Shown one piece after another: positions 5,806-10,315 of a stretch of DNA of 64,000 nucleotides. The stretch's first letter is position 1, and each line of letters begins with the position of its first letter. The DNA lies in the NCBI RefSeq assembly GCF_003790525.1, contig NZ_CP033635.1. One strand, 5' to 3'. The notes below the pieces were generated by a model. It was not told the DNA's origin. It saw only the letters and a list, made by a program, of their open reading frames with translations, and did no database searches. The translations under genes and the position numbers were made by a program. Source of the stretch: Escherichia coli (GTDB lineage Bacteria; Pseudomonadota; Gammaproteobacteria; Enterobacterales; Enterobacteriaceae).

Positions 5806-7874
<2,069 letters not shown>

Positions 7875-7876
7875 AT

Positions 7877-7907
7877 AAAACGGGAGGTGAAGGTGCCTCC
7901 CGTTTTT
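7877..7907. terminator. Bidirectional intrinsic terminator (AAAA-CGGGAGG-loop-CCTCCCG-TTTTT) shared by envZ and the minus-strand antitoxin gene
   Basis: 7 bp GC-rich stem 7881..7887 / 7896..7902 with A-run before and T-run after; antitoxin stop codon (7906..7908) lies in the T-run. Confidence 0.75.
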
Positions 7908-8202
7908 AGATTGTTTTCAATTGATTGATAATGAAAGGATTCGCTTGCAAAAGCAGGAGCAATTTTCGGGGTGCTCCGGTAGGCTGACGGCGTTTGGTTT
8001 CCCAGCTTTTGACCAGGTCATAACTTACCCCTACGGCGACAGCAAAATCTTGCTGACGTAAACCCGTTGCTTCACGGATCGCTTTTACATCGATTTCGCT
8101 AAAAGTATGGACGTGCTCTGGTTCTGGCGTTTCTTCACCCTTTTCGATGCGTACCATTTCTTCTGCGCTGGCAAGAAGATCAGCAAATAATTCATCTTTC
8201 AT
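7906..8202 (-). CDS. HigA-like antitoxin, XRE-family helix-turn-helix DNA-binding protein (98 aa)
   Basis: ATG at 8200..8202 with GGAGG Shine-Dalgarno about 10 nt upstream; C-terminal half has an HTH_XRE signature (LRQQDFAVAVGVSYDLVKSWETKRRQPTGAPRKLL); 58 bp downstream of a RelE/ParE-type toxin gene. Confidence 0.75.
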   Translation of the reverse strand: MKDELFADLLASAEEMVRIEKGEETPEPEHVHTFSEIDVKAIREATGLRQQDFAVAVGVSYDLVKSWETKRRQPTGAPRKLLLLLQANPFIINQLKTI

Positions 8203-8260
8203 CTGTTTTCAATGCCTCCGTTGACATTTCGGCCATGGTGGAATTTGTGGAGCTTCAACA

Positions 8261-8578
8261 TTAAAGCAGCTTCTCGGACAATAGTTTCAATGCCTTTCTT
8301 TGTTCTTCTGTTAAATCATCCTGTTCATTTTTAGGATAAATCAACGCCAGATAAATTCGGCCATTGCGTGTTACGTTGTAATAAATTATCCGAGTGCCAC
8401 CCCGTTTCCCCATTCCAGAACGGTTCCAGCGAATTTTTCTAAAACTGCCTGTGCCTGCGATAATGTCACCGGCAGTGGGATCTTGAATGAGTAGTTCCTG
8501 AAAAGCCCGGAACTCATCATCAGGTAGCAATAACTGGCGGCGTTTGCTAAATCCTTGTAGTTCAATAAAGGTGAACAT
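8261..8578 (-). CDS. HigB-like toxin, RelE/ParE superfamily (Gp49-like), probable ribosome-dependent mRNA endonuclease (105 aa)
   Basis: ATG at 8576..8578 with AGGA SD; motif GTGSFRKIRWNRSGMGKRGGTRIIYY resembles the conserved core of HigB-2/Gp49-like toxins (recalled Vibrio HigB: GTGGLRKIRVASKGKGKRGGSRIIYY); toxin-upstream, antitoxin-downstream order typical of hig loci. Confidence 0.72.
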   Translation of the reverse strand: MFTFIELQGFSKRRQLLLPDDEFRAFQELLIQDPTAGDIIAGTGSFRKIRWNRSGMGKRGGTRIIYYNVTRNGRIYLALIYPKNEQDDLTEEQRKALKLLSEKLL

Positions 8579-8602
8579 AATGCATCCTGCGGTCTATTGA
8601 TA

Positions 8603-8608
8603 ATTATA
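8603..8608 (-). promoter_or_regulatory. Candidate -10 hexamer TATAAT for toxin-antitoxin cassette promoter
   Basis: Perfect TATAAT on minus strand about 25 nt upstream of toxin ATG; -35 region weak; flanked by GTACAC direct repeat (possible operator). Confidence 0.35.
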
Positions 8609-8642
8609 AGTGTACCGTGTACATATTGGTAGCTAATTAGAT

Positions 8643-8673
8643 AAAAAAACCCCTTATCCGTTTGGATAAGGGG
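8643..8673 (-). terminator. Intrinsic terminator of pck (stem CCCCTTATCC / GGATAAGGGG followed by T7 on minus strand)
   Basis: 10 bp stem at 8650..8673 with A7 run at 8643..8649 (T-run on minus strand), 20 nt downstream of pck stop. Confidence 0.75.
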
Positions 8674-8692
8674 TCAATGAGATATCAGCTGA

Positions 8693-10315
8693 TTACAGCT
8701 TAGGACCTGCCGCTACCAGCGCGGCACCCGCAGGGGTGTCGGTGTATTTATCAAAGTTGTCGATAAACAGTTTCGCCAGGGTTTCGGCTTTTTCCTGCCA
8801 CTGTTCCGGGGAAGCGTAGGTGTTACGCGGATCGAGGATCTTCGTGTCTACGCCCGGCAGTTCGGTTGGGATCGCCAGGTTAAACATCGGCAGAGTGAAG
8901 GTTTCTGCGTTATCCAGCGAACCGTTGAGGATGGCGTCGATAATGGCGCGGGTATCTTTAATCGAGATACGTTTGCCAGTGCCGTTCCAGCCGGTGTTAA
9001 CCAGATACGCCTGCGCGCCTGCCGCCTGCATACGTTTCACCAGCACTTCTGCGTACTGAGTTGGGTGCAGCGACAGGAATGCCGCGCCGAAGCAGGCGGA
9101 GAAGGTTGGCGTCGGTTCGGTGATGCCGCGCTCTGTACCAGCCAGTTTGGCGGTGAAGCCAGAGAGGAAGTGGTACTGGGTTTGATCGGCAGTCAGACGA
9201 GAAACCGGCGGCAGCACGCCGAAAGCATCAGCAGTCAGGAAGATAACCTTAGTTGCGTGGCCCGCTTTGGACACCGGCTTAACGATGTTTTCAATGTGAT
9301 AGATAGGATAAGAAACGCGGGTGTTCTCGGTTTTTGAACCATCATCAAAGTCGATAGAACCATCTTCACGCACGGTGACGTTTTCCAGCAGCGCATCACG
9401 ACGGATAGCGTTGTAGATTTCAGGTTCCGCTTCTTTCGACAGCTTGATAGTTTTTGCGTAGCAGCCGCCTTCAAAGTTAAACACGCCGTCATCGTCCCAG
9501 CCGTGTTCGTCATCGCCAATCAGGCGACGTTTCGGGTCGGTGGAAAGGGTGGTTTTACCGGTGCCGGAAAGGCCGAAGAACACCGCAACATCGCCTTTCT
9601 CACCAACGTTGGCGGAGCAGTGCATAGAAGCGATACCTTTCAGCGGCAGCAGGTAGTTCATCATTGAGAACATCCCTTTCTTCATTTCGCCGCCGTACCA
9701 GGTGCCGCCAATCAGCTGCATGCGCTCGGTCAGGTTAAACGCCACGAAGTTTTCGGAGTTCAGACCCTGTTCTTTCCACTGCGGGTTAGTGCACTTCGCG
9801 CCGTTCATAACGATAAAGTCTGGTTTGAAACCTGCCAGCTCTTCATCGCTCGGGCGAATAAACATGTTTTTGACAAAATGCGCCTGCCAGGCCACTTCGG
9901 TGATGAAACGGACGGAAAGACGAGTATCCGGGTTCGCACCACAGAAAGCGTCGACAACGAACAGACGTTTGCCGGAAAGCTGTTTGGTCACCAGGCCTTT
10001 AAGATGCTGCCAGGTTTCCGGAGAGAGAGGTTTGTTGTCGTTCTTACCTTTGCCTTTGTCTGCCCACCAGAAAGTATCGCGAGTGGTATCGTCACGGACG
10101 ATATACTTATCTTTTGGTGAACGACCGGTGAAGATCCCGGTATCGACGGCAACGGCACCCAGATTAGTTAACACCCCGCGCTCATAACCTGTCAGGCTCG
10201 GATCGAGCTCTTCCTGATACAGCAGGTCGTAGCTTGGGTTGTAAACGATATCATGTACGTCACTGATACCATAAGCCTCGAGTTCTTGCGGGGTCAAACC
10301 ATTGTTAACGCGCAT
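8693..10315 (-). CDS. pck: Phosphoenolpyruvate carboxykinase (ATP)
   Basis: ORF-track 563 aa begins at a TTG; internal ATG (CAT 10313..10315) gives 540 aa [20 protein letters not shown]..., matching PckA. Confidence 0.95.

What the first reader, a model, noticed from the sequence alone, without database searches (positions are those of the whole stretch)
8579..8640. Candidate promoter and operator of the toxin-antitoxin cassette
A perfect TATAAT (minus strand, 8603..8608) lies about 25 nt upstream of the toxin ATG, with AGGA as ribosome-binding site. Overlapping and just upstream of the -10 is a GTACAC-GG-TACAC direct repeat built from GTAC palindromes (8611..8626). That is a plausible autoregulatory operator for the HTH antitoxin, as is usual for type II systems. 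The -35 is weak, which fits regulation by a bound factor.
Basis: inference. Interest (0 to 1): 0.3.

Follow-up and report, generated by a model that had tools for sequence, protein, structure and literature searches.

The report
Toxin-antitoxin promoter with palindromic operator
The 64 bases in front of an E. coli toxin-antitoxin gene pair hold a likely promoter and a 13-base palindrome, conserved in 24 related bacterial species, that is most likely where the antitoxin binds to shut off its own operon; this is an ordinary design, here in a sequence version not yet studied.

Summary
On the minus strand there is a perfect TATAAT at 8608..8603. AGGA lies 6 nt before the toxin ATG, and two GTACAC units sit 7 bp apart. 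The conserved unit is not the direct repeat. It is the inverted repeat TGTAC-N3-GTACA (8611-8623), which stops 2 bp short of the -10 rather than overlapping it.

The cassette is a HigB2/HigA2-type toxin-antitoxin pair, with the toxin gene first. It sits between the pckA terminator and envZ in an E. coli SMS-3-5-like chromosome.

In 80 homologous loci the palindrome (up to 1 mismatch) occurs 41 times within 130 bp upstream of the toxin gene and once in the other 235 kb. Its arms are invariant and its 3-bp spacer is free. It keeps a fixed register (palindrome, 2 nt, TAnnnT). It tracks the antitoxin recognition helix: 23 of 23 loci with an SYDLVKSWE-type helix have it, and 0 of 52 with a TLxNWEQG helix do. 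Most of the latter carry the footprinted Vibrio cholerae-type ACGC-N5-GCGT operator instead.

Relatives usually have two palindromes flanking a TTGAnn -35. The pck-sited cassettes keep one palindrome, a weak -35 and a near-consensus -10.

Binding and the transcription start remain untested. This is a new member of a known kind, of modest interest.

The parts
8641..8675 (-). Intrinsic terminator of pckA: 12-bp stem (8675..8648) followed by a T run. It limits read-through into the cassette.
   Evidence: 12 pairs, 6 G-C, T7 tail. The same terminator precedes the cassette in Citrobacter and Kluyvera. K-12 lacks it, having an empty site.
8626..8632 (-). Weak -35 position: TACCAA at a 17-nt spacer or CTACCA at 18 nt.
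   Evidence: 2-3 of 6 matches. Relatives at other sites have TTGAnn exactly here.
8611..8623 (.). Candidate operator O2: the inverted repeat TGTAC-ACG-GTACA, which fills the promoter spacer. It also reads as two GTACAC units with a 7-bp period.
   Evidence: Unique in the window. 41 upstream hits against 1 elsewhere across 80 loci. Arms invariant and spacer free. Co-varies with the antitoxin recognition helix.
8603..8608 (-). -10 hexamer TATAAT.
   Evidence: The register O2-NN-TAnnnT is exact in 19 of the 24 related-species loci that carry the palindrome.
8595..8598 (-). Predicted transcription start, 5-8 nt after the -10, giving a leader of about 17-20 nt.
   Evidence: Inference from the position of the -10 only. 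Not mapped.
8585..8588 (-). Shine-Dalgarno AGGA, 6 nt before the ATG.
   Evidence: Relatives have CAGGGAG or CAGGA at the same place.
8261..8578 (-). Toxin gene (105 aa), HigB2-like, Pfam PF06296.
   Evidence: 28.4 bits, cutoff 27. (V. cholerae HigB-2, E = 5e-24).
7906..8202 (-). Antitoxin gene (98 aa): HigA2-like, NadS family, with an acidic N-terminal part and a C-terminal XRE-type HTH. This is the presumed repressor.
   Evidence: HTH_31 and HTH_3. (NadS, 75.1 bits, cutoff 60). (HigA-2, E = 5e-5 over residues 4-91).
7877..7906 (.). Bidirectional terminator shared by envZ and the cassette, with an A run on one side of the stem and a T run on the other.
   Evidence: One search reports it on the + strand. 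Its use on the minus strand is read from the sequence. The same hairpin is the only terminator in the K-12 empty site.

Best explanation
The stretch 8579-8642 is the cassette's own sigma-70 promoter and operator. RNA polymerase uses TATAAT (8608..8603) with a poor -35 and starts near 8596. It transcribes toxin and antitoxin as one mRNA, which ends at the hairpin shared with envZ.

A dimer of the HTH antitoxin binds the 13-bp palindrome TGTAC-N3-GTACA (8611-8623), one recognition helix per 5-bp arm. The palindrome fills the spacer between -35 and -10, so bound antitoxin blocks polymerase and the operon represses itself. By analogy with A. baumannii HigBA2, the toxin-antitoxin complex probably represses at least as well as the antitoxin alone.

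What is shown here: the sequence elements, their conservation, their fixed register, and their covariation with the antitoxin helix. What is inferred: binding, repression, the transcription start and any toxin effect.
For: 1. Homology. The toxin matches V. cholerae HigB-2 (E = 5e-24). The antitoxin matches HigA-2 and HTH_3/HTH_31. The toxin gene comes first.
2. Experimental precedent. In V. cholerae, HigA2 footprints a single inverted repeat that lies between -35 and -10 and represses a reporter (PMC11006873). In A. baumannii the antitoxin represses, the complex represses more strongly, and no internal antitoxin promoter is active (PMC5906591).
3. Enrichment. TGTACNNNGTACA (up to 1 mismatch) occurs 41 times within 130 bp upstream of the toxin start. 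It is found in all 24 loci whose toxin is at least 57% identical, and once in the remaining 235 kb.
4. Selection pattern. The arms carry 2 bits per column, the spacer carries 0, and the flanks vary.
5. Register. The palindrome is followed by 2 nt and then TAnnnT. In relatives, TTGAnn lies 2 nt upstream of it, giving a 17-nt spacer.
6. Covariation. The motif is present in 23 of 23 loci with an S[YH][DE]x[VL]xSWE helix and 0 of 52 with a TLxNWEQG helix. 35 of those 52 have ACGC-N5-GCGT instead.
7. Mobility. The motif travels with the cassette through different genomic contexts and genera.
8. Insulation. A strong pck terminator lies immediately upstream.
Against: - There are no experimental data for this clade: no mapped start, no binding assay, and no paper found.
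- The -35 is poor and there is no extended -10 TG, so promoter strength is uncertain. The generic scan missed the site.
- The covariation reflects essentially one evolutionary split between two clades, so it is not many independent events.
- The N-terminal region is acidic here. The Lys/Leu/Thr cluster that V. cholerae HigA2 needs for high-affinity binding is not conserved, so affinity for a single operator could be low.
- One strain (FCI1) lacks half the palindrome yet keeps an intact toxin, so the operator is not essential for viability.
Confidence: 0.8

Rival explanations
1. The palindrome is the binding site of a host regulator rather than the antitoxin, for example a GntR- or CRP-like factor linked to pck or envZ-ompR.
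For: The site lies between two regulated host genes. Short palindromes containing GT...AC are used by several host regulator families (general knowledge, not tested here).
Against: The motif occurs upstream of the toxin gene in 20 loci that are not next to pck or envZ, in genera from Klebsiella to Alteromonas. It switches to another palindrome exactly where the antitoxin recognition helix switches. It occurs nowhere else in the 64 kb window.
Confidence: 0.05
2. The cassette has no promoter of its own here. It is expressed by read-through from pckA, and TATAAT is a chance match in AT-rich DNA.
For: The -35 is weak and the generic scan found no promoter. TATAAT appears by chance in 6.5% of shuffles of this stretch.
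Against: A 12-bp, T7-tailed terminator lies between pck and the cassette. The -10 keeps the same register to the palindrome in 19 of the 24 related-species loci that carry it. The pck-sited cassettes have the best -10 hexamers, averaging 5.75 of 6 against 3.8 of 6 elsewhere.
Confidence: 0.1
3. The repeat acts as an RNA or DNA hairpin (attenuator, processing site or recombination site) rather than as a protein-binding operator.
For: It is a palindrome. One 7-bp unit is deleted in some strains, which shows the repeat is prone to slippage.
Against: Folded as RNA, the region gives -4.4 kcal/mol, z = +0.9, and 169 of 200 shuffles fold at least as well. No Rfam family reaches threshold. The 3-bp spacer is completely free and the arms are fixed in sequence, not only in complementarity. 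The palindrome lies upstream of the predicted start.
Confidence: 0.03

Closest known systems
Vibrio cholerae higBA2 promoter and operator (HigA2 footprint and crystal structure, PMC11006873)
   Same: A homologous toxin (PF06296) and a homologous HTH antitoxin. The toxin gene comes first. A single inverted repeat lies in the core promoter between -35 and -10. The antitoxin dimer acts as repressor.
   Different: - The V. cholerae operator is TGTACGC-N5-GCGTACA (19 bp; the conserved core among relatives is ACGC-N5-GCGT) and runs over the -10. Here it is TGTAC-N3-GTACA (13 bp) and ends 2 bp before the -10.
- The base-contacting residues Arg68, Glu71, Asn72 and Arg77 align to Asp, Lys, Ser and Arg here.
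- The Lys/Leu/Thr cluster of the disordered tail that boosts DNA affinity is replaced by an acidic stretch.
Acinetobacter baumannii pAB120 higBA2 (PMC5906591)
   Same: The same toxin-first operon type. The antitoxin represses the operon promoter, the complex represses more strongly, and there is no separate antitoxin promoter.
   Different: That cassette is plasmid-borne. Its operator sequence is not defined in the paper. Its relationship to the clade studied here was not tested.
E. coli MqsR/MqsA operator (ACCT-N2-4-AGGT palindromes; from my own knowledge)
   Same: A toxin-first operon with a C-terminal XRE-type HTH dimer. The palindrome arms are short with a 2-4 bp spacer, and there are two palindromes in the promoter, as in most relatives of this cassette.
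   Different: The antitoxin scores only 31 bits against the MqsA family model (cutoff 61.8) and has no zinc-binding N-terminal domain. The toxin belongs to a different family.
Proteus vulgaris Rts1 HigB-HigA, with two operators in Phig (PMC12266136, abstract only)
   Same: A toxin-first operon repressed by an HTH antitoxin at its own promoter.
   Different: The toxin and antitoxin lineages are unrelated to this one. The E. coli cassette here has only one operator.

Membership tests
HigB2/HigA2-type type II toxin-antitoxin operon | The toxin belongs to Pfam PF06296 and is homologous to HigB-2. | tested here: met
   28.4 bits against a cutoff of 27. E = 5e-24 over residues 3-100.
HigB2/HigA2-type type II toxin-antitoxin operon | The antitoxin is homologous to HigA-2 and has a C-terminal XRE-type HTH. 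| tested here: met
   E = 5e-5 over residues 4-91. HTH_31 and HTH_3 both above their cutoffs.
HigB2/HigA2-type type II toxin-antitoxin operon | The toxin gene lies upstream of the antitoxin gene on one strand. | tested here: met
   toxin at 8578..8261 and antitoxin at 8202..7906, both on the minus strand.
HigB2/HigA2-type type II toxin-antitoxin operon | There is an inverted-repeat operator inside the core promoter. | tested here: met
   a conserved palindrome lies between the -35 position and the -10.
HigB2/HigA2-type type II toxin-antitoxin operon | The antitoxin binds the operator and represses transcription. | not testable with these tools
   This needs EMSA, footprinting or a reporter assay.
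V. cholerae-type HigA2 operator class (ACGC-N5-GCGT core) | An operator with the ACGC-N5-GCGT core in the promoter spacer. | tested here: not met
   absent from the promoter of all 23 SWE-helix loci examined; in the window the stretch read has no such core either. The two hits in that group lie over the ribosome-binding site. 35 of 52 NWEQ-helix loci have this core.
Canonical sigma-70 promoter | A -10 hexamer close to TATAAT. | tested here: met
   6 of 6 matches.
Canonical sigma-70 promoter | A -35 hexamer close to TTGACA at 16-18 nt from the -10. | tested here: not met
   at best 3 of 6 matches.
Canonical sigma-70 promoter | A mapped transcription start. | not testable with these tools
   No TSS data were available.
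NadS family (NCBIfam NF041265) | The protein scores above the curated cutoff. | tested here: met
   75.1 bits against a cutoff of 60. RefSeq annotates the gene as nadS.
MqsA family antitoxin (TIGR03830) | The protein scores above the curated cutoff. | tested here: not met
   31.1 bits against a cutoff of 61.8, and only the HTH part matches.

The most novel reading that the evidence does not exclude
The enterobacterial NadS/HigA2 clade may have re-specified its operator. The new form is a 13-bp TGTAC-N3-GTACA site with a different recognition helix, usually present as two sites 30 bp apart that bracket the -35.

In the E. coli pck-envZ cassette the single remaining site is also a 7-bp tandem repeat, and this could make it a slippage-prone genetic switch. 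Loss of one unit has occurred on at least two haplotypes. In the CFT073/Nissle/ATCC 25922 lineage it is coupled to toxin inactivation. This would leave a derepressed, orphan HTH protein free to take on another role.
Probability: 0.25. Interest if true: 0.45.

Novelty: new member of a known kind. Interest (0 to 1): 0.3.

Why it matters
The result gives a precise, testable operator (8611-8623) and promoter for a toxin-antitoxin cassette carried by about a quarter of complete E. coli genomes (1329 of 5426).

It shows that the HigA2 family uses at least two operator sequence classes that track the recognition helix. This is a natural pair for studying how HTH specificity is re-set.

It also flags a natural 7-bp operator deletion in widely used strains (CFT073, Nissle 1917, ATCC 25922, E2348/69) that could serve as a ready-made mutant. 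The mechanism itself is the standard autoregulation of type II systems.

Tried and rejected
- The generic promoter scan reported nothing at this site because its rule requires 4 of 6 matches in the -35. It did confirm the two terminators.
- RNA folding of 8579-8645 gave no structure beyond chance.
- The Rfam E-value scan of 7800-8800 returned only sub-threshold, terminator-like hits.
- I looked for a second, upstream palindrome 30 bp from the first in E. coli. That position lies inside the pck terminator T run, and there is no similarity.
- I first read the shared TGTAC in the V. cholerae operator as the same half-site. I rejected this because the conserved core of that class is ACGC-N5-GCGT, and aligning on the dyad places different bases at the contact positions.
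- Literature searches by protein accession, NadS family, DUF1044/PF06296 and HigB2 plus E. coli or Klebsiella found no study of this clade's operator.
- E. coli population SNPs are too few to test selection. Seven variable sites miss the 19 protected bases, which by my estimate would happen by chance about 27% of the time (alignment).
- I did not run structure prediction, because it cannot model the DNA complex.

Full report
**Observation.**
The minus strand upstream of the toxin gene reads ...TTTTTTTATCTAATTAGCTACCAATA-TGTAC-ACG-GTACA-CT-TATAAT-TATCAATAGACCGC-AGGA-TGCATT-ATG.
- TATAAT is at 8608..8603, with 24 nt between it and the ATG at 8578. AGGA is at 8588..8585.
- The two GTACAC units are at 8622..8617 and 8615..8610, a period of 7 bp. 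They abut the -10 and do not overlap it.
- The same bases form the inverted repeat TGTAC-N3-GTACA (8611-8623). The exact palindrome is unique in the 64 kb window, against 0.01 expected.
- TATAAT occurs 10 times on both strands of the window and in 6.5% of shuffles of this AT-rich 64-nt stretch.
- The -35 is poor, at 2-3 of 6 matches, which is why the generic scan missed the site.

**Context.**
- The window matches the E. coli SMS-3-5 chromosome at 100%.
- The gene order is envZ (+), then on the minus strand pckA, its own strong terminator (8675..8648 plus a T run), the 64-nt control region, a 105-aa toxin and a 98-aa antitoxin. After these comes a hairpin shared with envZ.
- The toxin is Pfam PF06296 and matches V. 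cholerae HigB-2 at E = 5e-24.
- The antitoxin is an XRE-type HTH protein of NCBI's NadS family and matches HigA-2 at E = 5e-5.
- K-12 has an empty site: 75 bp with one shared terminator.
- The cassette is present in 1329 of 5426 complete E. coli genomes, always at this site.

**Comparative evidence.**
A scan of one genome per species returned 80 loci encoding relatives of the toxin.
- TGTACNNNGTACA with up to one mismatch occurs 41 times in the 130 bp upstream of the toxin start. It is found in all 24 loci whose toxin is at least 57% identical, and once in the other 235 kb.
- Aligned on the proximal site, the ten arm positions are invariant, the three spacer positions carry no information, and the flanks vary.
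- The site is followed by 2 nt and then TAnnnT, in exact register in 19 of the 24 related-species loci that carry it.
- In loci outside the pck-envZ site, TTGAnn lies 2 nt upstream of the palindrome. The palindrome therefore fills a 17-nt spacer.
- A second copy lies 29-31 bp further upstream in 15 enterobacterial loci.
- The single-site loci include exactly the four that lie between pck and envZ: E. albertii, two Citrobacter and Kluyvera.
- These four, like the window, have weak -35 hexamers but the best -10 hexamers, averaging 5.75 of 6 against 3.8 of 6 elsewhere.
- The weak -35 is therefore a feature of this insertion site, apparently offset by the -10. It is not a hallmark of repressor control.

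**Link to the antitoxin.**
I extracted the downstream antitoxin from each locus and classed its recognition helix.
- All 23 loci with an S[YH][DE]x[VL]xSWE helix carry the TGTAC-N3-GTACA site.
- None of the 52 loci with a TLxNWEQG helix do. 35 of those 52 carry ACGC-N5-GCGT between a TTGAC -35 and the -10.
- That second class is the one footprinted and crystallised for V. cholerae HigA2 (TGTACGC-N5-GCGTACA). In that system the antitoxin represses a reporter and needs dimerisation (PMC11006873).
- The V. cholerae base-contacting residues Arg68, Glu71, Asn72 and Arg77 align to Asp, Lys, Ser and Arg here. This fits a changed specificity.
- In A. baumannii the antitoxin represses, the complex represses more, and no internal antitoxin promoter is active (PMC5906591).
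- The covariation is essentially one clade split, so it is supportive rather than statistically independent.

**Mechanism proposed.**
An antitoxin dimer on the 13-bp palindrome occupies the spacer between -35 and -10 and excludes RNA polymerase. The toxin-antitoxin complex probably also binds. Transcription starts near 8596 and ends at the hairpin shared with envZ. Binding, the transcription start and the toxin effect are inferred.

One caveat applies. The N-terminal tail is acidic and lacks the Lys/Leu/Thr cluster that gives V. cholerae HigA2 its high affinity. A single site might therefore repress weakly.

**Population variation.**
Among eight E. coli haplotypes, the arms and the -10 are unchanged apart from one event. 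That event is a 7-bp deletion removing one GTACACG unit, which leaves only TGTACA.
- The deletion allele is in 108 genomes.
- 107 genomes are at least 99% identical to the deletion allele, among them CFT073, Nissle 1917, ATCC 25922, ABU 83972 and E2348/69.
- 107 genomes carry a toxin D21K/E22stop allele, and the strains listed for the two searches overlap. The toxin is annotated as a pseudogene in CFT073, E2348/69 and Seattle 1946.
- One further strain (FCI1) has the deletion on a different haplotype with an intact toxin.
- The direct-repeat reading is therefore real as a slippage substrate, and the operator is not essential for viability.

**Rivals.**
- A host regulator is unlikely, because the site moves with the cassette across contexts and genera and switches with the antitoxin helix.
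- Read-through from pck is opposed by the terminator and by the conserved -10 register.
- An RNA structure is not supported (z = +0.9; no Rfam family reaches threshold).

**Verdict.**
This is a new member of a known kind. It is a standard autoregulated type II promoter, but its operator belongs to a sequence class I found no study of. Interest is modest.

Noticed in passing
window 8609-8622; L088, L089, L090, L091, L092: A 7-bp deletion of one GTACACG unit halves the palindrome in 108 of 1329 cassette-bearing E. coli genomes. 107 genomes are at least 99% identical to the deletion allele (including CFT073, Nissle 1917, ATCC 25922, ABU 83972 and E2348/69), and 107 genomes carry a toxin D21K/E22stop allele, with overlapping strain lists. 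One strain (FCI1) has the deletion on another haplotype with an intact toxin.
   Followed up: partly
L082 (K-12 MG1655 3534200-3534800) compared with window 7877-8692: K-12 has an empty site: 75 bp between pck and envZ with a single shared bidirectional terminator. The roughly 0.8 kb present in the window brings the toxin, the antitoxin, the control region and a separate pck terminator. Whether this reflects a gain or a loss was not resolved.
   Followed up: partly
L023-L080, 20-45 bp upstream of each toxin gene: Distant relatives carry V. cholerae-type palindromes such as TATACGC-N5-GCGTATA between a TTGAC -35 and the -10. The right arm often forms the -10 itself. Some Acidobacteria loci (L048, L074, L080) have two such sites.
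   Followed up: partly
L005, L006 and L011, 5-20 bp upstream of the toxin ATG; window 8580-8594: In Citrobacter and Kluyvera the ribosome-binding site sits inside a short palindrome (GCGC-AGGAA-GCGC, TACGC-AGGAT-GCGTA). This could mask the site in the mRNA, or it could be chance. E. coli has only a degenerate version (CCGC-AGGAT-GCAT).
   Followed up: no
L002 2200-3315 (E. albertii NBRC 107761): Downstream of the antitoxin, only about 83 C-terminal codons of envZ are recognisable. They are followed by a 32-codon pck-like fragment and an unrelated 213-aa ORF. This suggests a rearrangement or an insertion at this site.
   Followed up: no
window 8100-8202 (antitoxin residues 1-34): The N-terminal, presumably toxin-binding part of the antitoxin is strongly acidic (KGEETPEPEH). 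V. cholerae HigA2 has the DNA-contacting cluster GKLTLKTHH at the corresponding place. The tail-assisted DNA binding described for V. cholerae may therefore not apply here.
   Followed up: no
L017, L015, L043: Some relatives show decay. Erwinia (L017) has lost the right arm of the proximal site. Pluralibacter (L015) has a degenerate distal site. Photorhabdus bodei (L043) has a truncated toxin reading frame but keeps both palindromes intact.
   Followed up: no
window 8203-8260: The toxin-antitoxin spacer is 58 nt long, with GGAGG 12 nt before the antitoxin ATG. It contains no promoter-like site and no palindrome of either class. This is consistent with a single transcript.
   Followed up: partly
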